Source of the DNA: Minisyncoccota bacterium
Lineage (GTDB): Bacteria > Patescibacteriota > Minisyncoccia > Phycocordibacterales > SBAW01
DNA length: 39,923 bases
Reading direction: 5' to 3'
Assembly (NCBI GenBank): GCA_035997465.1
Contig: DASYIO010000122.1
Coordinates: forward strand, 1-39,923
The translations under genes and the position numbers were made by a program. Of the stretch, positions 11,562-39,923 are shown piece after piece. The notes under the pieces were generated by a model, which saw only the letters and a program-made list of their open reading frames with translations, was not told the DNA's origin and searched no databases. Numbering within the stretch: the stretch's first letter is position 1; every line of letters starts with the position of its first letter.

Positions 11562-11647
11562 GTGATATGCAAGCATATCACCTGCACTCGCTCGAAATCA
11601 AAAGTTAACTTTTGTTTACTCGCTCGCTTGGTGATAAATTAGACTAC

Positions 11648-12262
11648 ATGCAAGGCAAGATCCATAAGGCGGTCGCAGATGCGCTCAAGAGCCTCGGGGC
11701 AGGCGAGGCAGCATTTGTTGTCGAGCGCCCGCGCAGCATGGAGCACGGCGACTATGCCACCAACGCCGCCTTGGTGGCTAAAGTAGACGCGCAAACTTTG
11801 GCCGACAAGCTCAAAATAGATGGTGTTGAAAAAGTAGAGGTAGTGGGCAAGTTTATAAACTTTTATCTTTCGCGCCAAGAACTTGTCCCTAAAGAGCAAA
11901 ACATCCCACAGTTGTATGCTGGCAAAAAAGTGATGGTTGAGTATACCGACCCCAACCCGTTTAAAGAGTTCCACATCGGACACTTAATGAGCAATACAAT
12001 AGGGGAGGCAATCGCGCGACTTTTTGAAACATCGGGGGCCGATACGGTGCGCGCTAATTATCAAGGAGATGTAGGCGCACACGTGGCGAAAGCTATCTGG
12101 GGTAAACAACAAAAGCTTGATGCGTTGTGGGGCGAAGCGTATGTGTACGGCTCTGACCAATACGAGGCTCATAAAGATGAAATAGATACTCTTAACAAAA
12201 CGATTTACGAAAAGAGTGACGTTGCGGTAAACACCTTATATGACGAGGGGCGCGCACAGTAG
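11648..12262 (+). CDS. argS: Arginine--tRNA ligase, N-terminal part (ends at an in-frame TAG; possible pseudogene or read-through)
   Basis: N-terminal anticodon-accessory region, then VEYTDPNPFKEFHIGHLMSNTIGEA (HIGH motif). Ends at the TAG at 12260-12262 in the same frame as the next fragment. Confidence 0.8.
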   Translation: MQGKIHKAVADALKSLGAGEAAFVVERPRSMEHGDYATNAALVAKVDAQTLADKLKIDGVEKVEVVGKFINFYLSRQELVPKEQNIPQLYAGKKVMVEYTDPNPFKEFHIGHLMSNTIGEAIARLFETSGADTVRANYQGDVGAHVAKAIWGKQQKLDALWGEAYVYGSDQYEAHKDEIDTLNKTIYEKSDVAVNTLYDEGRAQ

Positions 12263-13228
12263 CTTGAGCGTTTTGAAGAGATTTATAAAAAACTCGGCAC
12301 AAAGTTTGAGTATTATTTTTTTGAAAGTCAGGTCGGGCCCATTGGTTTAGAGTTGGTTAAAAAGCATCCCGAAGTCTTTACCGAAAGCGAAGGCGCCATC
12401 GTCTTTAAGGGAGAGGACGTCGGTCTGCATACGCGGGTATTTGTTAACAGCAAGGGCTTACCTACCTACGAGGCTAAAGAGTTGGGGCTGGTTGAAGCAA
12501 AAAAAGAAAAAGGTAATTTTGACCTATCGCTTACTGTGACCGCCAACGAAATAAGCGAGTATTTTAAGGTTGTGCGTGCAGCGGCTGAAAGAATATTTCC
12601 TGACCTTGAGGGCAAAATGCAGGCGCGCTTCCATGGCTTCCTTAAGCTCACCACGGGCAAAATGTCTTCGCGCAAAGGCAATGTTATTACCGGCGAGTCT
12701 TTGCTTGCCGACTTGACCGAAGCTGCTAAAGGCAAAATGGAGGGTAGGGAGTTGAAGGATGTCAACAAGACCGCCGAGCAGATTGCAGTGGGCGCAATTA
12801 AATACGCCGTACTTAAACAGGGGAGCGGGCGCGACATCATCTTTGACCCCGAAAAGTCTTTGTCGCTCGAGGGCGACTCGGGTCCGTACTTGCAATACGC
12901 GCGTGTACGCGCCTTATCGTTATTGGAAAAGGCCAAAGAGGCCGGCGTTGCGGCTGGCACAGACGATGCGCCCGCAGAGGCGAGCGCGCTTGAGCGCGTG
13001 CTCGTGCACTACTCTGAAGCTGTTGAGCGGGCGGCAAAAGAAATGGAGCCGCACTATGTTACGACCTATTTAACCGAGCTGGCATCGGCCTTTAACTCCT
13101 GGTACGCAGGCGGCAAAGTCATAGGCGGAACAAGTCCGCACTACGGTGTCTTTTTGGTAGAGGCGTTTGAAAAAACAATGTCCCAGGGTCTGCAGGTCTT
13201 GGGCATCCCCGCACCCGAGGAGATGTAG
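12263..13228 (+). CDS. argS: Arginine--tRNA ligase, C-terminal part (same frame as 11648..12262, continues directly after the TAG)
   Basis: The translation right after the TAG (LERFEEIYKKLGTKFEYYFFESQV...) continues ArgRS homology. It includes TGKMSSRKGNVI (KMSK-like), the DALR-type anticodon-binding end, and the terminal M typical of ArgRS. The listed ORF 12353..13228 starts at a TTG with no SD. Confidence 0.8.
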   Translation, partial: LERFEEIYKKLGTKFEYYFFESQVGPIGLELVKKHPEVFTESEGAIVFKGEDVGLHTRVFVNSKGLPTYEAKELGLVEAKKEKGNFDLSLTVTANEISEYFKVVRAAAERIFPDLEGKMQARFHGFLKLTTGKMSSRKGNVITGESLLADLTEAAKGKMEGRELKDVNKTAEQIAVGAIKYAVLKQGSGRDIIFDPEKSLSLEGDSGPYLQYARVRALSLLEKAKEAGVAAGTDDAPAEASALERVLVHYSEAVERAAKEMEPHYVTTYLTELASAFNSWYAGGKVIGGTSPHYGVFLVEAFEKTMSQGLQVLGIPAPEEM

Positions 13229-13237
13229 AATGGTTGT

Positions 13238-13432
13238 ATGGAATATCTACATCCGCTCGGTATCCTCCTGACGCTGGCTGGAGCTCTCGTTGCTTCTCTT
13301 AGCATAGTCAACCCCACTCGGATTGTCCCAAAGGGCAAGAATTTTAGTTCTCAAACCAAAAAATGCTTACTGATCATCGGGGTTTTAATGATTGCCGTTG
13401 GTCTTGCGCTTGCGCTATTTGCCGCCCGGTAG
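13238..13432 (+). CDS. Hypothetical small membrane protein (64 aa, two TM segments)
   Basis: Two clear hydrophobic helices in a tight slot between argS and ileS. No homology recognised. Confidence 0.35.
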   Translation: MEYLHPLGILLTLAGALVASLSIVNPTRIVPKGKNFSSQTKKCLLIIGVLMIAVGLALALFAAR

Positions 13433-13473: not shown

Positions 13474-16400
13474 ATGGACGACCCGAAGCAGGGGGGCGAG
13501 GTTAATGCTCCTAAAGTCAAAAGCGAGACTGTTTTGCGCGAGGAAGAGATCCTCGCCTTTTGGAAGCAGGACAAAACTTTTGAAAAGTCTCTTACAAAGT
13601 CCGCGCCCAAGGGAGAGTTTATCTTTTACGACGGCCCACCGTTTGCCACTGGCCTGCCGCACTCGGGCTCTCTTCTTTCCTCCGTCATTAAAGACGTAGT
13701 GCCGCGCTACAAGACCATGCGCGGCTACCGCGTGCCGCGTGTGTGGGGCTGGGACACGCACGGGCTCCCCATCGAGAACATGGTCGAGAAGGCGCTTGGT
13801 CTTAAGACAAAAAAAGAGATACTCGATATCGGCATCGGCGCCTTCAACGAAAAGGCGCGCTCGATGGTGCTCCAGTATGTAGATGATTGGGAGAAGTATA
13901 TCGACCGGGTCGGCCGCTGGGTCGACTTTAAGAACTCGTACAAGACGATGGACAACTCCTACATCGAGTCTGTCTGGTGGGCGCTTAAGCGACTAGATCA
14001 AAAAAAGCTTTTGTACGAAGGTCGCAAGGTTTTGATGTACTGTCCTCATTGCGAAACGCCTTTGGCTAAGGCCGAGATAGCGGCCGACAATACGTACAAA
14101 GACATCACCGAAGAGGCGGTGACTGTGCGTTTTAAGGTCAAAGATCCGCACAAGCACAAACTGCCCGACAATACCTACCTGTTGGCCTGGACCACCACGC
14201 CTTGGACGCTGCCCGGCAACGTGGGGTTGGCGGTCGGCCCTGACATGCGCTATGCGGTGGTGCAAGAGGGGAGTGTGCACTATATCGAGCAAGAAGACGG
14301 TGGTGATATAAAGGGGAGCGACTTGGTCGGCATCGAGTATGAACCGTTGTTTGATGTCCCGGCGCTGCACTCTGCGCGCTCCTACAAAGTATGGGCGGCC
14401 GGCTTTGTTGTGGCAGGCGAGGGCACGGGTATTGTGCACACGGCGGTAATGTACGGCGAAGACGACTTTGCACTGGGTATGCGCGAAAAGTTGCCCATGG
14501 TGCAGATGCTCGAGCCCAACGGCCATTACAACAATGTGGCCCCCGAGTTTGTGCGCGGCAAATATATCAAGCAGGCCGAGAAGCCCATTAAAGAGTATTT
14601 AGAGACACATCATTTGTTGCACGGTCGTGCTATGCATACGCATTCGTACCCGCATTGCTGGCGTTGCGGCACCGCGCTTATATACAACGCGGTTGCGTCG
14701 TGGTTTTTAAATATCCAAAAAGTTAAGGCAAAGATGCTGAGCGAAAACGAAAAGGTGTCGTGGTTTCCCGAGCACCTAAAGCACGGGCGCTTCCGCAACA
14801 TTGTCGAAAACGCCCCCGACTGGACGATATCGCGCAATCGCTTTTGGGCCTCGCCCCTGCCGATATGGAAGGAGAAAGGCGGCAATAAGCTTATGGTCGT
14901 AGGCTCGGTTGATGAGCTCTTGGCCAAGACCAAGCGCTCCGGCAATCGCTACTTTGTGATGCGGCACGGCGAGGCGAAGAGCAATGTGAATGGAGTTTTT
15001 GATTTGAACGGAGACCCAAACAATCATCTGACAGACAAAGGCAAGCATCAGGTCATACATACTGCCGCGGATTTGCGCAAAGAAAAGATAGACATGGTCA
15101 TAGCGTCTCCGTTTGTTCGTACGCACGAAACAGCAAAGATCGTAATCAAGGAGCTAGGATTGTCTGACTCAGCGCTCATGACAGACGAGCGCCTGCATGA
15201 ATATAACGAACAATCTTTACTGGAGGTCCGCCGTCGGGTAGGAGAGCTTCTGTTTGAGATAGAGCGTCGTTACACGGGGAAAAACGTACTCCTCGTTTCG
15301 CATGGCAACCCGCTGTGGAATTTAATCCATGTGGCAAAACGTATACCATCCGAAAACTTTGCAGATAAAGAAATGCCAAAACTTGCCGAAGTGCGAGAGC
15401 TGCCGTTCGTACTCTTTCCTCACACCAAAGACTACGAGCTCGATTTGCACCGCCCCTACATAGACGATGTGGTGTTAATAGACGGCAAGGGCGGCAAGTA
15501 TGAGCGCATCCCCGAGGTGCTGGACTGCTGGGTCGAGTCGGGCGCTATGCCCTTTGCCCAGGCGAACTACCCGCGCGACAAAAGCAGGGTAAACCCTGGA
15601 AGATTTTTCGGCCTCTTTCCCAAAGGCTACCCTGGCGACTTTATCGCCGAGTACATCGCGCAAACACGCACGTGGTTTTATTACATGCATGCGATGGGTG
15701 TGCTGTTGTTTGGCAGGCAGGCGTTTAAGTCGGTAGTGTCGACCGGCACCATACTTGCGGCCGATGGCAGCAAAATGAGCAAGTCTAAGGGCAATTACAC
15801 CGACCCATGGGAGCTAATGGAGAAGTGGGGTGCCGATCCGTTTCGCTTTTACCTTATGAGTTCGGTTGTGATGCAGGGTGAGGATCTTAACTTTAAAGAC
15901 GATGATGTACGCGAGTCGCATAATCGTGTCGTTGGTACGCTATGGAACTCGTTTAAATTTTTTGAGCTCTACAAAGACAAACTTGGCGGGACGGTTCATG
16001 CCAACAGCCCACATCCGCTCGACAGGTGGGTGATGTCGCTTCTTAATAAAACCACTATCGAGGTTACCGCTGCGTTTGAGGCGTACGATATGCCGCGCGT
16101 GGCGCGGGCCTTGCGCGCCTTTATTGAGGACTACTCGCTGTGGTATGTGCGCCGCTCGCGCGAGCGCGCTAGGGCTGAGAGTACCGATCAACAAGCAACT
16201 CTTGCGACTCAGTGGCATGTACTTGCGACGGTTGCAAAACTGATAGCGCCCATCATGCCGTTTTTGGCCGAGAGTATTTACAAAGGACTGGGCGAGCAAG
16301 CAAGTGTGCACTTAAGCGCGTGGCCCGGTGCCGGTAGCGTGGACGAGCATCTGCTTGCCGACATGCAGACTGTCCGAGAGCTTGCATCTAAAGGCCTAGA

Positions 16401-16770
16401 GTTACGCGAGCGCGCCAATATAAAAGTACGACAGCCGCTATCTACATTTAGAGCTAAGGCTGTACCTGCAGACACAGGACTGCGTCAGATATTGGCCGAC
16501 GAGCTTAACGTCAAGGAAATTGTGCAAGACGAGTCGCTCGAGGCTCCTGTGCTGGCTATTGAGCTTACTGCGGAGTTAAAAGAAGAGGGCCTGGTGCGCG
16601 ACCTGGTGCGCCGCATACAAGAGTGGCGCAAAGAGCAGGGCCTGACTGTTACCGACCGCCCAACATACGAGCTTAAGGTTATCGGCGAGGAAAAACAGGC
16701 CGCACAAAATAATAAAGAAAAAATAATGACGGCAACAAACCTTAGCAAGCTGACGATTACCGATGCATAA
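13474..16770 (+). CDS. ileS: Isoleucine--tRNA ligase (type 2) carrying an inserted histidine-phosphatase (PGAM-like) domain
   Basis: FIFYDGPPFATGLPHSGS, GWDTHGLPIE, WTTTPWTLPGN (editing domain), DWTISRNRFWASPLPIW, and GSKMSKSKGNY (KMSKS). Codons 487-656 (14932..15441) are an extra domain with RHGE...SPFVRTHETA...LHE...VSHG. Confidence 0.9.
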   Translation: MDDPKQGGEVNAPKVKSETVLREEEILAFWKQDKTFEKSLTKSAPKGEFIFYDGPPFATGLPHSGSLLSSVIKDVVPRYKTMRGYRVPRVWGWDTHGLPIENMVEKALGLKTKKEILDIGIGAFNEKARSMVLQYVDDWEKYIDRVGRWVDFKNSYKTMDNSYIESVWWALKRLDQKKLLYEGRKVLMYCPHCETPLAKAEIAADNTYKDITEEAVTVRFKVKDPHKHKLPDNTYLLAWTTTPWTLPGNVGLAVGPDMRYAVVQEGSVHYIEQEDGGDIKGSDLVGIEYEPLFDVPALHSARSYKVWAAGFVVAGEGTGIVHTAVMYGEDDFALGMREKLPMVQMLEPNGHYNNVAPEFVRGKYIKQAEKPIKEYLETHHLLHGRAMHTHSYPHCWRCGTALIYNAVASWFLNIQKVKAKMLSENEKVSWFPEHLKHGRFRNIVENAPDWTISRNRFWASPLPIWKEKGGNKLMVVGSVDELLAKTKRSGNRYFVMRHGEAKSNVNGVFDLNGDPNNHLTDKGKHQVIHTAADLRKEKIDMVIASPFVRTHETAKIVIKELGLSDSALMTDERLHEYNEQSLLEVRRRVGELLFEIERRYTGKNVLLVSHGNPLWNLIHVAKRIPSENFADKEMPKLAEVRELPFVLFPHTKDYELDLHRPYIDDVVLIDGKGGKYERIPEVLDCWVESGAMPFAQANYPRDKSRVNPGRFFGLFPKGYPGDFIAEYIAQTRTWFYYMHAMGVLLFGRQAFKSVVSTGTILAADGSKMSKSKGNYTDPWELMEKWGADPFRFYLMSSVVMQGEDLNFKDDDVRESHNRVVGTLWNSFKFFELYKDKLGGTVHANSPHPLDRWVMSLLNKTTIEVTAAFEAYDMPRVARALRAFIEDYSLWYVRRSRERARAESTDQQATLATQWHVLATVAKLIAPIMPFLAESIYKGLGEQASVHLSAWPGAGSVDEHLLADMQTVRELASKGLELRERANIKVRQPLSTFRAKAVPADTGLRQILADELNVKEIVQDESLEAPVLAIELTAELKEEGLVRDLVRRIQEWRKEQGLTVTDRPTYELKVIGEEKQAAQNNKEKIMTATNLSKLTITDA

Positions 16771-17341
16771 GATATTCGTAACCGAGGGCGTGGTGTTGGG
16801 CAAGCGCACAGCAGGCGAGGCCAACACGCTTGTGTCGATATTGACCCGCGAGCTGGGGCTTGTGCGCGCGTCGGCGCGCTCGGCGCGCGTCGAGCAGTCT
16901 AAGCTGCGCTACGGGCTCGAGACGCTCACACTCGGGCGCTTTAGTATGGTGCGCGGCAAGCACGACTGGAAGTTAACCGGCGTGGAAAATGTCTCGCACG
17001 CGTTTGTGCAGGGTGGCAAAGACAGCCGGCAGCGCTGCGGCAAAATAGCCAAGCTCCTGCTGCGCCTTATCCATGGCGAGGAGCGCGTGCCTGCGCTGTA
17101 TGCAACGGTTGCCGAAGGTCTTGCGGCAATCGCCCGCACGTCAACAACCGTTGATGCCGAGGCCATAGAGACAGTGTTGGTGTTGCGCGTCTTGGCGCAC
17201 CTGGGATATTTGCCGCACACGCAGGCCCTGGCGCAATTTATAGAGGGCGAGTACTCGGTCGAGCTGTCTGCCGAGGCGCTCAAGTCGCGCTCGCTGTTGG
17301 TACGCGCGATAAACGAGTCTTTGATCGCCACTGGCCTTTAG
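16763..17341 (+). CDS. recO: DNA repair protein RecO (short form)
   Basis: N-terminal OB-fold pattern (TEGVVLGKRTAGEANTLVSILTRELGLVRASARSAR...KLRYGLETLT) and a helical C-terminus. Overlaps ileS by 8 nt. Confidence 0.75.
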   Translation: MHKIFVTEGVVLGKRTAGEANTLVSILTRELGLVRASARSARVEQSKLRYGLETLTLGRFSMVRGKHDWKLTGVENVSHAFVQGGKDSRQRCGKIAKLLLRLIHGEERVPALYATVAEGLAAIARTSTTVDAEAIETVLVLRVLAHLGYLPHTQALAQFIEGEYSVELSAEALKSRSLLVRAINESLIATGL

Positions 17342-38003: not shown

Positions 38004-39923
38004 ATGTCTACTCTTACTAACAGTTCGACTCGCCTCGCTGCGCTCGTCGCAGGCGTTGCAGTTGCACTCGCTCTTATGAGCGCAGTTGCAGTTGCTCCGG
38101 CACAAGCTGCAGGACTTTCGTCCACGCAGGTGCAGGCAATCGTTACCTTGCTCGCATCGTTTGGTGCTGACTCGGCTACGATCGCAAATGTCACCGCGGC
38201 CCTTAACGGCCAGGCGACTACGGGTACTGGCTCCGGCTCTGCTGGCGCTTGCCCGGTTCTCTCACGTTCGCTTTCGTTGGGCGCAACTGGCGCAGACGTC
38301 AAGTCTCTTCAGATGTTCCTCAACGCTTCTGCTAACACCCGTGTTGCTGTATCCGGCGCAGGCTCTCCTGGTTTGGAGACCACCTACTTCGGTCCGGCTA
38401 CTCAGTCGGCAGTAGTTAAGTTCCAGGCTGCTAACAACGTCTCCGCTATCGGCGTCGTTGGTCCTGCAACCCGCGCAGCTATCGCAGCAGTCTGCGGTAC
38501 TACGGGCACTGGTACCGGCACCGGTACTGGTACGGGCACTGGCACTGTAGTCCTCCAGGGTGGCGAGGGTTCGCTCGATGAAATCGACAACACCTCTTCT
38601 AACCTCGAGTCCACAGTCCGCGAGGGCGAGACTCAGAATGTCTACGGAGTTCAGGCTAAGGCCAAAGACTCTGACGTCATGATCGAGCGTGTTGACGTTG
38701 ACTTTACCCGCTCTGACACCACTCCTGGCGCAAGCTCTTCTCACCTTGATGACTATGTCTCCAAGGTAAGCTTGAACCTTGACGGCAAAGAGCTCGCTTC
38801 TATGGATGTCGACTCGGCAGACGAGAACGACAAGGCCACTGGCGACTTCGACAACACTGCAGACACCGGCGACAGCAAGGTTTACTCTTTCCGCTTCTCT
38901 GGTCTTAAGGGAGTGATAAAGGAGGACGACCTCGCTCGCTTGTACGTATCTGTTAAGGCTGTCAGCAACGTCGACTCTGACGATGCAGGCAAGACTTGGT
39001 ACGTCCACATCCCGGTAGACGGCATCCGCGCCGTTGACGGTGCTGGTATCTCTGACACCTACGGTACTGACTCTGAGCTCGACGATGATACGTTCTCAGT
39101 CGAAAAGGCTGAGTCCGGCGACCTTAACCTCACTGCAAACGGCAGCGACAACGAGGACCGCGTAATCACTGTCAGCGCAGACAATGACACTAACGGTGAG
39201 GAGGTAATGGCCTTCAACCTTAAGTCTCAGACCTCTGACAACAACATCTCGGAGATCCGCGTAAACCTCGCAACCACCACTTCTACTTCGACTATGCTCT
39301 CTTCTGCTATCAACCAGTTGCACCTCTTCCAGGGCTCCAAGGAGATCGCAAGCGCAGACATCGAGGGCAGCATGGGTGACGAGCACGCTATCTTCGACAA
39401 CCTCGACGTGGACATCAATGAGGACAGCGACGTTGACTTTACCGTCAAGGCTGACTTCAACGACAACGCTGACGAGCGCAATGGTCTCGCATTCCAGGCT
39501 TCTATCCCGGGTTCCGGTATCGAGGCTGAGGACGGCGAGCAGGATGATGTAACCATCGGTAACACTGTTACCGGCGGCGAAATCGAGCTCCGCACTACGG
39601 GCATCACGGCGGTCTTTAAGAGCGCTGATGAGGTTCGCAGCAACGGTTCTCTCGCAGGTGACGCTGACGCAGTTGACTTCACCATCAAGTTCAGCGTAAC
39701 TGCTGTAGGCGATGACGATGTCTTCCTCGACGGCGACGTCCTCCAGGGCGTTGTGGCTCCGACCACCGCGACCGACGGTTTGACGTGGGCAACCACGACT
39801 GACTCGAGCACTGGTACTTCCAGCTACACCGGTATCCTTACCGCTGATGATGGTTACCAGAGCGGCGACGACACCAACAACGCAGGCGACAAGCGCTTCA
39901 AGATCGAGTCCGGTGCGACCAGG
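38004..39923 (+). CDS. Secreted cell-surface (S-layer-like) protein: signal peptide, PG_binding_1-like domain, Thr-Gly linker, and acidic beta-rich repeats. The 3' end runs off the window.
   Basis: Not in the ORF track because no stop is reached. My translation from the ATG at 38004 stays open for 640 codons to 39923. It begins MSTLTNSSTRLAALVAGVAVALALMSAVAVAPAQA/AG. The peptidoglycan-binding-like segment is CPVLSRSLSLGATGADVKSLQMFLN...TYFGPATQSAVVKFQAANNVSAIGVVGPATRAAI. Then come GTTGTGTGTGTGTGTGT and D/T/S/N/G-rich modules. Third-position bias is strong (GCT/GGT/ACT/TCT/GAC/AAC/CTC), unlike neighbouring genes. Confidence 0.8.
   Translation, partial: MSTLTNSSTRLAALVAGVAVALALMSAVAVAPAQAAGLSSTQVQAIVTLLASFGADSATIANVTAALNGQATTGTGSGSAGACPVLSRSLSLGATGADVKSLQMFLNASANTRVAVSGAGSPGLETTYFGPATQSAVVKFQAANNVSAIGVVGPATRAAIAAVCGTTGTGTGTGTGTGTGTVVLQGGEGSLDEIDNTSSNLESTVREGETQNVYGVQAKAKDSDVMIERVDVDFTRSDTTPGASSSHLDDYVSKVSLNLDGKELASMDVDSADENDKATGDFDNTADTGDSKVYSFRFSGLKGVIKEDDLARLYVSVKAVSNVDSDDAGKTWYVHIPVDGIRAVDGAGISDTYGTDSELDDDTFSVEKAESGDLNLTANGSDNEDRVITVSADNDTNGEEVMAFNLKSQTSDNNISEIRVNLATTTSTSTMLSSAINQLHLFQGSKEIASADIEGSMGDEHAIFDNLDVDINEDSDVDFTVKADFNDNADERNGLAFQASIPGSGIEAEDGEQDDVTIGNTVTGGEIELRTTGITAVFKSADEVRSNGSLAGDADAVDFTIKFSVTAVGDDDVFLDGDVLQGVVAPTTATDGLTWATTTDSSTGTSSYTGILTADDGYQSGDDTNNAGDKRFKIESGATR
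38496..38546 (+). repeat. Imperfect hexanucleotide (GGY ACN) tract encoding the (Gly-Thr)n linker
   Basis: The tract reads ggtactacgggcactggtaccggcaccggtactggtacgggcactggcact. Confidence 0.8.

What the first reader, a model, noticed from the sequence alone, without database searches (positions are those of the whole stretch)
14932..15441. Complete histidine-phosphatase (PGAM-family) domain inserted inside isoleucyl-tRNA synthetase
In IleRS the segment between DWxISRxRxWGxPxPxW and the DLHRPxID element is normally a short connector. Here it holds about 170 extra in-frame codons (K487-L656).

The insert contains every catalytic signature of the histidine phosphatase superfamily, in the right order and spacing:
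- FVMRHGEAKSN (Arg497-His498, the phospho-acceptor; His codon at 14965-14967).
- IASPFVRTHETA (second Arg).
- DERLHEYN (acid/base Glu).
- VLLVSHGNPLW (second His, codon at 15301-15303).

It has no intein signatures (no N-terminal Cys/Ser with a C-terminal His-Asn). That makes it a permanent domain fusion placed in the second half of the Rossmann fold, close to the active site and the KMSKS loop. I do not know of a described aaRS with an embedded phosphatase. Speculatively it could hydrolyse a phosphorylated or adenylated by-product (Ap4A-type nucleotides, non-cognate aminoacyl-AMP) or an inhibitor, or it could act as a regulatory switch.
Basis: partly seen in the sequence, partly recalled or inferred. 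Interest (0 to 1): 0.78.

Follow-up and report, generated by a model that had tools for sequence, protein, structure and literature searches.

The report
Phosphatase domain embedded inside isoleucyl-tRNA synthetase
An essential protein-synthesis enzyme (isoleucyl-tRNA synthetase) of an ultra-small "candidate phyla radiation" bacterium carries a complete-looking phosphatase enzyme spliced into its middle; the same phosphatase is a separate gene pressed against the synthetase gene in sister lineages, so the two have stayed linked as a unit that I found described in no paper I could search, and its job is unknown.

Summary
ORF 13474-16770 (+) is a type-2 IleRS (TIGR00392 776 bits). It carries a 166-aa histidine-phosphatase (Pfam His_Phos_1, E 5e-25) insert at aa 483-648, where reference IleRS has a 4-10 aa connector in a zinc-knuckle hairpin.

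The catalytic residues R497/H498/N504/R549/E576/H610 are intact and 97-100% conserved in 120 homologues. The window's copy lacks the ~30-aa substrate "cap", which has been lost about 10 times independently.

It is not an artefact or a one-off: at least 106 species-level Paceibacteria/Parcubacteria genomes carry it.

The main new result is that the same phosphatase subfamily also occurs as a separate gene wedged between argS and an insert-less ileS. 52 of 58 informative loci show this, mostly with overlapping stop/start codons. Embedded and separate forms have switched at least 5 times. The subfamily also occurs inside ValRS (up to 4 or more tandem copies), on the ArgRS C-terminus and on TsaC.

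Best reading: an active accessory phosphohydrolase coupled to adenylate-forming tRNA enzymes. The substrate is unknown; pyrophosphate is the lead candidate.

No paper found describes it. Novelty: a new variant of a known kind (an aaRS accessory domain). Interest about 0.72.

The parts
13474..16770 (+). ileS: type-2 isoleucyl-tRNA synthetase, 1098 aa, with an internal phosphatase domain
   Evidence: Single ORF. TIGR00392 776 bits against a cutoff of 621. Foldseek TM 0.71-0.75 to P. megaterium IleRS2.
14920..15417 (+). Inserted histidine-phosphatase (His_Phos_1) domain, aa 483-648, short cap-less form
   Evidence: Pfam PF00300 88.7 bits, E 5e-25. Boundaries from alignment to 8c8u and to the insert-less IleRS of L083/L084. 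Model pLDDT 94.5. Foldseek matches to PspA, GpgP, PhoE and RosC.
14938..14952 (+). S-G-N-x-Y motif (aa 489-493) preceding strand 1; N-x-Y marks this phosphatase subfamily in both embedded and free-standing forms
   Evidence: S489, N491 and Y493 are invariant in the 90-sequence alignment A1; 99-100% in the 121-sequence alignment (120 homologues plus the window protein). N-x-Y in 38/38 free and 71/80 embedded copies.
14962..14967 (+). R497-H498 of the RHG motif; H498 is the predicted phospho-acceptor nucleophile
   Evidence: 99% and 100% conserved. Coordinates verified.
14983..14985 (+). N504, a conserved phosphate-pocket residue
   Evidence: 97% conserved.
15118..15120 (+). R549, the second catalytic Arg (S-P-x-x-R motif)
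   Evidence: 100% conserved.
15199..15201 (+). E576, the predicted acid/base Glu (R-L-x-E)
   Evidence: 100% conserved. Aligns to the RLNE Glu of dPGM 4emb.
15202..15228 (+). Short linker YNEQSLLEV that replaces the ~42-aa cap segment of the ancestral long form
   Evidence: 13 residues between E576 and R588 here, against 40-46 in 95 of 121 sequences. Root state is long, with about 10 independent losses.
15301..15303 (+). H610, the second catalytic His
   Evidence: 99% conserved. Coordinates verified.
15397..15441 (+). Conserved return linker ELPFVLFPHTKDYEL (aa 642-656), leading back into the IleRS DLHRP motif
   Evidence: F645 93%, P649 97%, H650 82%, N651 87%, E655 89%. pLDDT at least 92 in the full-length model. 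Free-standing proteins end at '...GELRKL' instead.
14869..14889 (+). First half of the degenerate zinc-knuckle (KEKGGNK; relatives have CxxC)
   Evidence: Alignment to 8c8u and L083. The four Cys are intact in 37/38 insert-less IleRS but lost in 43/80 embedded IleRS.
15478..15501 (+). Second half of the degenerate zinc-knuckle (IDGKGGKY; relatives have CxxC)
13660..13671 (+). Non-canonical class-I signature H-S-G-S in place of H-x-G-H
   Evidence: Among 120 homologues: HxGS 109, HxGN 7, HYGH 4. Confined to the window's sub-clade.
15772..15786 (+). Intact KMSKS loop motif
   Evidence: K[MILV]SKS in all 121 aligned sequences (120 homologues plus the window protein).
11612..13228 (+). argS, the upstream member of the conserved argS-(phosphatase)-ileS-recO block; interrupted by an in-frame TAG at 12260-12262
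   Evidence: Pfam Arg_tRNA_synt_N, tRNA-synt_1d and DALR_1 on the two pieces. Sequence read directly.
16763..17341 (+). recO, the downstream member of the conserved block
   Evidence: Pfam RecO_N and RecO_C. Same order in L001, L083 and L084.

Best explanation
**What it is.** The segment is a catalytically competent branch-1 histidine phosphatase. It works as an accessory enzyme of class-I, adenylate-forming tRNA enzymes in Paceibacteria (CPR).

**How the module is arranged.**
- In the window's lineage it is rigidly built into the zinc-knuckle hairpin of the IleRS connective-peptide region.
- In sister lineages the same protein is made from a separate gene between argS and ileS. That gene mostly overlaps or abuts the ileS start; translational coupling is my inference from this.

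**Shown here:** fold, catalytic residues, purifying selection, clade-wide occurrence, genetic linkage, repeated change of topology, and structural integration (decay of the zinc site).

**Inferred:** it hydrolyses a phosphate-bearing species that is produced or bound at the synthetase.
- Lead candidate: the pyrophosphate released on amino-acid activation. This would pull adenylate formation forward. A substrate that small would also explain why the substrate cap is dispensable.
- Next candidates: a phosphate on the tRNA acceptor end, or a phospho-residue on the synthetase itself.
For: **Active enzyme**
- The catalytic set RHNREH is kept in about 115 of 120 homologues at 56-83% identity, while neighbouring positions fall to 20-50%.
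- It is kept in 37/38 free and 72/80 embedded copies of a second, wider set.
- It is kept in every complete tandem copy of the multi-copy variants, except one copy that reads RHAREH; the copy truncated at the protein end could not be scored.

**Fold**: Foldseek probability 1.0 to PspA, GpgP, PhoE and RosC.

**Coupling to the synthetase**
- Free-standing homologues lie between argS and an insert-less ileS.
- In 80 metagenomic loci, 52 are free with ileS downstream and 49 of those are within 220 nt. Most junctions are -6 to +11 nt.
- 16 loci are embedded, all at the same site. Only 6 informative loci lack ileS downstream.
- Embedded and free states switch 5-6 times on the IleRS-core tree in 200/200 bootstraps. 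They switch 4-10 times on the domain tree.

**Structural integration**
- Linkers have pLDDT of at least 92 and the model has pTM 0.80.
- The four knuckle Cys are lost only in embedded forms: 49/80 lost or partial, against 1/38 (Fisher p about 1e-10).

**Partner spectrum**
- IleRS: 85 of 96 long representatives by motif; 4 of the 9 not classified by motif also scored as IleRS in NCBIfam.
- ValRS at the equivalent site: P0234 and P0133, the latter with 4 or more copies.
- ArgRS C-terminus: L132.
- TsaC/Sua5: P0170.
- All of these make an acyl-adenylate plus PPi and bind tRNA. That statement rests on established biochemistry of these families, not on a test here.
Against: - No substrate was tested, and none can be deduced from sequence.
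- To my knowledge, branch-1 histidine phosphatases are not established pyrophosphatases.
- All aaRS release PPi, so a dedicated IleRS/ValRS-bound PPase is not obviously needed.
- The ancestral long form has a PhoE-like cap, which is typical of enzymes acting on small organic phosphates.
- Adjacency alone could explain how the fusion arose without any functional link.
- A more distant free-standing member (P0247, in a gene context that looks archaeal to me from its S27e, RIO1 and TsaD/Kae1-type neighbours) is not next to ileS.
- The orientation of the phosphatase pocket relative to the synthetic site could not be read, because no coordinates or PAE were available.
- The ArgRS and TsaC fusions are single observations. 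One ValRS case carries an in-frame stop on a 3x-coverage contig.
Confidence: 0.55

Rival explanations
1. A hitch-hiking housekeeping phosphatase. The enzyme has a general metabolic role unrelated to aminoacylation, for example a PhoE/PspA-like small-molecule phosphatase or the cell's general PPase. It ended up inside ileS only because it was the neighbouring gene and the CP hairpin tolerates insertions.
For: - The closest solved relatives are small-molecule phosphatases.
- The ancestral form has the usual cap.
- The same IleRS region also accepts other foreign domains. P0185 has GNAT plus an IS200-type Y1 transposase domain, and NCBIfam has an IleRS-with-GNAT model.
- Stand-alone tandem versions exist: P0251 and P0266.
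- A distant member is unlinked to ileS.
- The insert evolves faster than the IleRS core: 49% against 67% mean pairwise identity.
Against: - The linkage to ileS is kept in about 90% of informative free-standing loci, with overlapping stop/start codons.
- Linkage is re-established in different topologies at least 5 times.
- The same subfamily independently joins ValRS, ArgRS and TsaC.
- The cap that would define a small-molecule specificity is lost about 10 times while catalysis-related residues stay.
Confidence: 0.3
2. A non-catalytic structural or sensor domain. The fold now serves to stabilise the CP hairpin in place of zinc, or to bind a phosphorylated ligand that regulates IleRS. It would not turn over substrate.
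For: - Loss of the zinc-binding cysteines only after embedding.
- Rigid, confidently predicted linkers.
- Repeated loss of the cap.
Against: - A purely structural role does not explain near-absolute conservation of the nucleophile His, both Arg, the Glu and the second His. This holds in embedded, free-standing and tandem copies alike.
- The free-standing form cannot be a hairpin brace.
Confidence: 0.1
3. An artefact or selfish element: a chimeric assembly junction, an intein, or a mobile insertion with no host function.
For: Other mobile-type domains occur in the IleRS of some relatives, such as Y1_Tnp in P0185. Tandem copy-number variation exists.
Against: - The same in-frame architecture is found in at least 106 species genomes and many long contigs of up to 722 kb.
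- There is no Hint, intein or endonuclease domain.
- Base composition is unremarkable across the junctions.
- Catalytic residues are under purifying selection.
Confidence: 0.02

Closest known systems
Type-2 isoleucyl-tRNA synthetase (IleRS2), e.g. Priestia megaterium IleRS2 (PDB 8C8U/8C8V; PMC10485003)
   Same: - Full IleRS2 domain set: HUP core, CP1/editing domain, CP2, anticodon-binding domain and a type-2 C-terminus (DUF5915).
- 30% identity and TM 0.71-0.75.
- TIGR00392 score above its cutoff.
- Intact KMSKS.
   Different: - A 166-aa phosphatase sits where PmIleRS2 has residues 474-479.
- The zinc-knuckle cysteines are lost.
- The HIGH signature is H-S-G-S. This is neither canonical HxGH nor the published [A/G]xHH hyper-resistance variant.
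Histidine phosphatase superfamily, branch 1 (PhoE/YhfR 1H2E, PspA 4IJ5, GpgP Rv2419c 4QIH, RosC, CobC, dPGM)
   Same: - Same fold: Foldseek probability 1.0, TM 0.65-0.69.
- RHG nucleophile, two Arg, Glu acid/base and second His in the canonical order.
   Different: - Only 15-23% identity.
- No NCBIfam equivalog cutoff is reached.
- The cap segment is deleted in the window's copy.
- It is embedded in, or operon-coupled to, a tRNA synthetase.
- The subfamily-specific N-x-Y motif before strand 1 is, from my recollection of the PhoE, dPGM, SixA and PspA N-termini, not a general feature of the superfamily (not tested here).
- Substrate unknown.
SixA (phosphohistidine phosphatase), the minimal cap-less member of the superfamily
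   Same: Similar small size (about 160 aa) and lack of the cap insertion. This gives an open active site of the kind used on phosphoproteins (from my own knowledge of the family).
   Different: TIGR00249 scores 47.7 bits against a cutoff of 74.5. The cap-less state here is secondarily derived from a capped ancestor.
Cis/trans accessory hydrolase modules of aaRS: bacterial ProRS INS domain versus free-standing YbaK/ProXp; AlaRS editing domain versus AlaX
   Same: The evolutionary logic is the same. One hydrolase family is found either inserted in or appended to a synthetase, or as a separate small protein serving it (from my own knowledge, not tested here).
   Different: - The chemistry differs: those modules deacylate mischarged tRNA, whereas this is a phosphatase fold.
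- Here the separate gene is physically adjacent to the synthetase gene, and the topology has switched repeatedly.
Bifunctional RNase H / acid phosphatase (Rv2228c type; NCBIfam NF005567) and IleRS with a GNAT domain (NCBIfam NF040702)
   Same: - NF005567 is the best NCBIfam hit of the insert (69 bits). It is a precedent for a His_Phos domain fused to a nucleic-acid enzyme.
- NF040702 is a precedent for a foreign enzyme domain in IleRS.
   Different: - Both are far below cutoff: 69 against 326, and 296 against 1999.
- The partner enzymes differ.
- Judging from profile offsets, the GNAT seems to sit at another position in IleRS.

Membership tests
Isoleucyl-tRNA synthetase (TIGR00392 equivalog), type 2 | Whole-protein score at or above the curated cutoff | tested here: met
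   776.2 bits against a cutoff of 621.4, matched in two stretches around the insert.
Isoleucyl-tRNA synthetase (TIGR00392 equivalog), type 2 | Canonical class-I HIGH signature (H-x-G-H, or the published [A/G]-x-H-H of IleRS2) | tested here: not met
   The window has H-S-G-S. The clade has HxGS in 109/120 and HxGN in 7/120. Published variants are from PMC10485003.
Isoleucyl-tRNA synthetase (TIGR00392 equivalog), type 2 | KMSKS loop motif | tested here: met
   KMSKS at aa 767-771; K[MILV]SKS in all 121 aligned sequences (120 homologues plus the window protein).
Isoleucyl-tRNA synthetase (TIGR00392 equivalog), type 2 | Type-2 C-terminal organisation and overall fold | tested here: met
   Pfam Anticodon_1 plus DUF5915. 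Foldseek's best matches are IleRS2 structures, TM 0.71-0.75.
Isoleucyl-tRNA synthetase (TIGR00392 equivalog), type 2 | Aminoacylation of tRNA-Ile | not testable with these tools
   Needs biochemistry. Indirect support: strong conservation of the core (67% mean pairwise identity).
Histidine phosphatase superfamily, branch 1 (Pfam PF00300) | Score above the Pfam gathering threshold | tested here: met
   88.7 bits against 21.7, E 5e-25.
Histidine phosphatase superfamily, branch 1 (Pfam PF00300) | RHG nucleophile His, plus two Arg, second His and acid/base Glu | tested here: met
   R497, H498, R549, E576 and H610 are present and 99-100% conserved.
Histidine phosphatase superfamily, branch 1 (Pfam PF00300) | Alpha/beta fold of the superfamily | tested here: met
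   Model pLDDT 94.5. Foldseek probability 1.0 and TM 0.65-0.69 to 4IJ6, 4QIH, 1H2E and 9MMH.
Histidine phosphatase superfamily, branch 1 (Pfam PF00300) | Substrate-binding cap insertion after the catalytic Glu | tested here: not met
   Deleted in the window: 13 residues between E576 and R588, against 40-46 in 95 of 121 sequences. SixA-type members also lack it, so this does not exclude membership.
Histidine phosphatase superfamily, branch 1 (Pfam PF00300) | Phosphatase or mutase activity through a phospho-His intermediate | not testable with these tools
   Needs an enzyme assay with an H498A control.
Specific named enzymes: dPGM, CobC, PspA, SixA, RNase H/acid phosphatase (NCBIfam equivalogs) | Score at or above the curated equivalog cutoff | tested here: not met
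   Best scores against cutoffs: NF005567 69 vs 326; dPGM_arch 63 vs 225; PspA 53 vs 350; SixA 48 vs 74.5; CobC 42 vs 163.
Intein / homing element | Hint or intein domain, N-terminal Cys/Ser and C-terminal His-Asn | tested here: not met
   No such Pfam hit at E below 0.01. The junctions read ...DEL|LAKTK... and ...VLF|PHTKD....

The most novel reading that the evidence does not exclude
The phosphatase may be a previously unrecognised class of synthetase accessory enzyme, a cis/trans 'product-clearing' or 'repair' module. Possible activities are:
- hydrolysing the pyrophosphate released on activation;
- removing a blocking phosphate from the tRNA acceptor end;
- removing a phosphate placed on the synthetase by a kinase.

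On this reading it acts directly at class-Ia synthetases and TsaC. Paceibacteria would then depend on it for efficient charging of tRNA-Ile and tRNA-Val. Its repeated relocation between an upstream gene and one precise internal hairpin would reflect selection for proximity to the catalytic site.
Probability: 0.3. Interest if true: 0.88.

Novelty: new variant of a known kind. Interest (0 to 1): 0.72.

Why it matters
**A new chemistry in synthetases.** Aminoacyl-tRNA synthetases are among the most studied enzymes. Their known add-on domains are editing, tRNA-binding or regulatory modules. I found no description of a conserved, catalytically intact phosphatase wired into IleRS and ValRS. If it really works with the synthetase, it adds a new type of chemistry to the aminoacylation cycle.

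**A handle on CPR biology.** It gives a way into the poorly understood physiology of CPR bacteria, a large share of bacterial diversity that includes obligate episymbionts.

**A natural experiment in domain insertion.** The module exists as an adjacent gene, as an internal insert at one precise hairpin, as tandem arrays, and as fusions to other adenylate-forming enzymes. Once embedded, the host's zinc site decays.

**An annotation problem.** NCBI labels many of these proteins only as 'class I tRNA ligase family protein'. That may be because the insert splits the IleRS match, though I did not test the cause.

**A second unusual feature.** The co-occurring H-x-G-S variant of the class-I signature motif is a further, testable departure from the rule in a motif linked to mupirocin resistance in IleRS2.

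Tried and rejected
**Stand-alone copies that were not.** P0121 and P0122 looked like free-standing genes 57% and 39% identical to the insert. They are fragments of frameshift-broken ileS genes, flanked by tRNA-synt_1 pieces. I rejected them as free-standing genes.

**Ancient paralogy with differential loss.** This could have explained the interleaving of embedded and free forms. The domain tree never recovers two clean clades: 4-10 changes, mode 7, in 200 bootstraps. L099 (embedded) and L083 (free) share 54% domain identity and 57% core identity. However, free copies are more alike (about 0.47-0.50) than expected from their IleRS distances. Part of this is ascertainment, because the loci were chosen by similarity to P0125. 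I therefore claim several switches, not their direction.

**A link between the HxGS signature and the insert.** Rejected. HxGS/N is confined to the window's sub-clade. Embedded forms elsewhere have HxGH or GxHH, and so do free-standing forms.

**Split-IleRS intermediates.** P0245 starts at a contig edge and is uninformative. P0234 turned out to be a ValRS.

**Literature.**
- Five term combinations found nothing relevant.
- Two recent IleRS papers do not mention the insert.
- Searches on pyrophosphatase in Parcubacteria gave no usable statement.

**A motif-anchored count of the zinc knuckle.** My first attempt failed to parse most sequences. I redid it with alignment columns.

**Pocket geometry.** I could not obtain coordinates or PAE for the models, so the position of the phosphatase pocket relative to the synthetic site, the KMSKS loop or the tRNA path remains unknown.
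Full report
**1. The observation**

The window holds one uninterrupted ORF, 13474-16770 (+), of 1098 aa.
- It is an isoleucyl-tRNA synthetase. TIGR00392 scores 776 bits against a cutoff of 621, and Pfam finds tRNA-synt_1, Anticodon_1 and DUF5915.
- The Pfam tRNA-synt_1 match is split in two. Between the halves lies a His_Phos_1 (PF00300) match. It scores 81.6 bits in the whole protein and 88.7 bits (E 5e-25, cutoff 21.7) on the excised segment.
- Base composition shows no discontinuity at the junctions.

The insertion point is sharp. Against the closest solved IleRS (P. megaterium IleRS2, 8c8u), query residue 482 pairs with chain residue 474 and query 649 with chain 479. Against an insert-less IleRS from a related bacterium (L083/L084), the same place holds a ~10-aa connector flanked by CxxC...CxxC. 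The insert is therefore aa 483-648 (nt 14920-15417).

The full catalytic set is R497, H498, N504, R549, E576 and H610.

**2. Is it a real, folded, functional-looking domain?**

- AlphaFold2 models are confident. The insert with short flanks has pLDDT 94.5 and pTM 0.90. The full length has pLDDT 88.3 and pTM 0.80, with pLDDT of at least 92 on both linkers.
- Foldseek places the insert in branch 1 of the histidine phosphatase superfamily. Probability is 1.0 and TM 0.65-0.69 to PspA 4IJ6, GpgP 4QIH, PhoE 1H2E, RosC and the riboflavin-pathway HFP 9MMH.
- The full-length model matches IleRS2 structures at TM 0.71-0.75.
- No NCBIfam equivalog (dPGM, CobC, PspA, SixA, RNase H/acid phosphatase) reaches its cutoff. 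The specific enzyme cannot be named.
- In 120 homologues (56-83% identical overall), the six catalytic positions are 97-100% conserved. Adjacent positions fall to 20-50%.
- The insert evolves faster than the IleRS core (49% against 67% mean pairwise identity) but is clearly constrained.

**3. The window's copy is a derived, cap-less form**

Most relatives have a ~198-201-aa insert. It includes a ~42-aa segment after the catalytic Glu (E...G...G......PEGGE), which corresponds to the usual substrate cap of this family.

The window and 25 others have only 12-14 residues there, with several unrelated replacement sequences. On a tree built from the IleRS core only, the root state is long, and parsimony needs about 10 changes. 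All 26 short forms keep RHNREH. So 'complete domain' is true for catalysis but not for the substrate-binding cap.

**4. Distribution**

- All 120 best hits in the 5.8-billion-protein database carry PF00133 plus PF00300. Their contigs reach 722 kb, and their names include Paceibacterota, Adlerbacteria, Kaiserbacteria and Parcubacteria.
They span Zambryski-, Adler-, Taylor-, Nomura-, Colwell- and Yanofskybacteria and others.
- An exhaustive HMMER search of 1.84 billion cluster representatives gave 279 hits at E of 1e-10 or better. Most of the long ones are IleRS.

Assembly chimerism is excluded. There is no intein signature.

**5. The key new finding: a phosphatase-synthetase module with several topologies**

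Two apparent stand-alone hits were fragments of frameshift-broken ileS. A genuine free-standing family of 185-205 aa does exist. It shares the N-x-Y-F-[IL]-[LM]-RHG start and a C-terminal ...GE[LI]R[KE]L strand with the insert.

In three independent cases this gene lies directly between argS and an insert-less ileS of 947 aa. The block order is the same as in the window: argS-ileS-recO-DUF11/CLIPPER-like.

A metagenome scan seeded with the free-standing family returned 80 loci:
- 52 have ileS downstream, and 49 of these lie within 220 nt. Most junctions are -6 to +11 nt, that is, overlapping stop and start codons.
- 16 are embedded, every one at the same IleRS position (reference residues 477/478 to 485/486).
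- Only 6 informative loci show no ileS downstream.

On an IleRS-core tree of 118 sequences, the embedded and free states change 5-6 times in 200/200 bootstrap replicates, against 26-32 for shuffled labels. On the phosphatase-domain tree they change 4-10 times and never just once. The two forms are therefore not simply two ancient paralogues.

Caveats on this analysis:
- The trees are neighbour-joining.
- The free-standing set was ascertained by similarity to one protein.
- Free copies are more alike than their IleRS distances predict.

For these reasons I claim several switches but not their direction.

Other arrangements of the same subfamily:
- Two to four tandem copies, all keeping the catalytic residues.
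- Insertion at the equivalent position of ValRS. P0234 is inserted at profile positions 461/474. P0133 has 4 or more copies.
- An in-frame fusion to the ArgRS C-terminus, in L132.
- A fusion to TsaC/Sua5, in P0170.
- A distant member in a gene context that looks archaeal to me is not linked to ileS.

**6. Structural integration**

The insertion lies in the loop of a zinc-knuckle hairpin. The four cysteines are intact in 37/38 insert-less IleRS. Among 80 embedded IleRS, 43 have lost all four and 6 have lost some. Fisher's p is about 1e-10, not corrected for phylogeny. The window has lost all four (KEKGGNK / IDGKGGKY).

The embedded forms also have a conserved return linker (PFVPFPHNxxYE) that the free proteins lack. 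Together with the confident linkers in the model, this indicates a rigidly docked domain that took over stabilisation of the hairpin.

According to PMC10485003, the PmIleRS2 catalytic HUP core is residues 40-168 and 513-632. The site (474-479) is therefore in the connective-peptide region just before the second half of the fold.

**7. Mechanism**

Shown:
- an intact, selected phosphatase active site;
- obligate genetic linkage to class-I synthetase genes;
- structural integration.

Inferred: the enzyme acts on something tied to the synthetase reaction. IleRS, ValRS, ArgRS and TsaC have two things in common: formation of an acyl-adenylate with release of PPi (then AMP), and binding of tRNA. This is established biochemistry, not tested here.

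My lead candidate is hydrolysis of PPi at source. It is a tiny substrate, which would make the cap dispensable. Copy-number increase would also make sense. The next candidates are removal of a phosphate from the tRNA acceptor end, and dephosphorylation of the synthetase itself. Cap-less relatives such as SixA act on phosphoproteins, and toxin kinases are known to target aaRS active sites; both statements come from my own knowledge.

Against the lead candidate:
- Branch-1 members are not known PPases.
- Every aaRS makes PPi.
- The ancestral form is capped.

The main rival is that the phosphatase has an unrelated housekeeping role and was captured from the neighbouring gene. I put this at about 0.3. 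A purely structural or sensor role fits the zinc-site decay but not the conservation of the catalytic residues in free-standing and tandem copies.

**8. Comparison with what is known, and novelty**

The host is an IleRS2, and the guest is a branch-1 histidine phosphatase. Both families are well known.

The nearest conceptual precedent is the set of cis/trans accessory hydrolases of synthetases (ProRS INS versus YbaK, AlaRS versus AlaX). NCBIfam also has an IleRS-with-GNAT model.

I found no description of a phosphatase in or with any aaRS:
- Five literature searches returned nothing relevant.
- A structural paper and a 2026 preprint that dissects IleRS domains across 1,535 sequences do not mention it.

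I rate it a new variant of a known kind: an aaRS accessory domain with new chemistry and an unusual evolutionary behaviour. It is of high interest because the function is open and directly testable.

Noticed in passing
window 13660-13671 (IleRS aa 63-66): The class-I 'HIGH' signature is H-S-G-S, so the fourth His is replaced. Among 120 homologues it is HxGS in 109, HxGN in 7 and canonical HYGH in only 4. It is confined to the window's sub-clade. It differs from the published [A/G]xHH mupirocin hyper-resistance variant, which other relatives carry (e.g. L083: GIHH).
   Followed up: partly
window 12260-12262 (within argS, 11612-13228): An in-frame TAG splits the arginyl-tRNA synthetase into two ORFs that continue in the same frame. 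TAG is a normal stop in this window (14 of 30 long ORFs). This is therefore a sequencing error, a split or pseudogene, or readthrough.
   Followed up: partly
window 13238-13432 (+): A 64-codon ORF with two hydrophobic stretches (MEYLHPLGILLTLAGALVASL...LLIIGVLMIAVGLALALFAAR) lies in the 245-nt argS-ileS spacer. This is exactly where relatives carry the free-standing phosphatase gene. I have no evidence that it is expressed.
   Followed up: no
P0185 (IleRS homologue, 1066 aa, truncated): One IleRS carries three foreign domains: an IS200/REP-type Y1 tyrosine-transposase domain at aa ~326-472 (inside the CP1/editing region), the His_Phos at 680-854, and a GNAT acetyltransferase at ~921-1065.
   Followed up: partly
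P0225 (979 aa): A second His_Phos copy sits at a different site (aa 438-627). It lies between the end of the catalytic domain and the anticodon-binding domain, in addition to the usual site.
   Followed up: no
L171 2470-2472: A ValRS with the embedded phosphatase has an in-frame TAA right after the phosphatase, and the ValRS continues in the same frame. The contig has about 3x coverage. It could be an error, or a naturally split ValRS broken at the insertion point.
   Followed up: partly
L001 1937-4022: In a close relative's contig, a TnpB-like gene (HTH_OrfB_IS605, weak hit) and a Cas1 gene sit between argS and a fragmented ileS. This suggests mobile-element activity at this locus.
   Followed up: no
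window 38262-39923 (-): Two long ORFs on the minus strand (38262-39095 and 39096-39923) abut and are separated only by a TGA. This may be an in-frame TGA within one gene.
   Followed up: no
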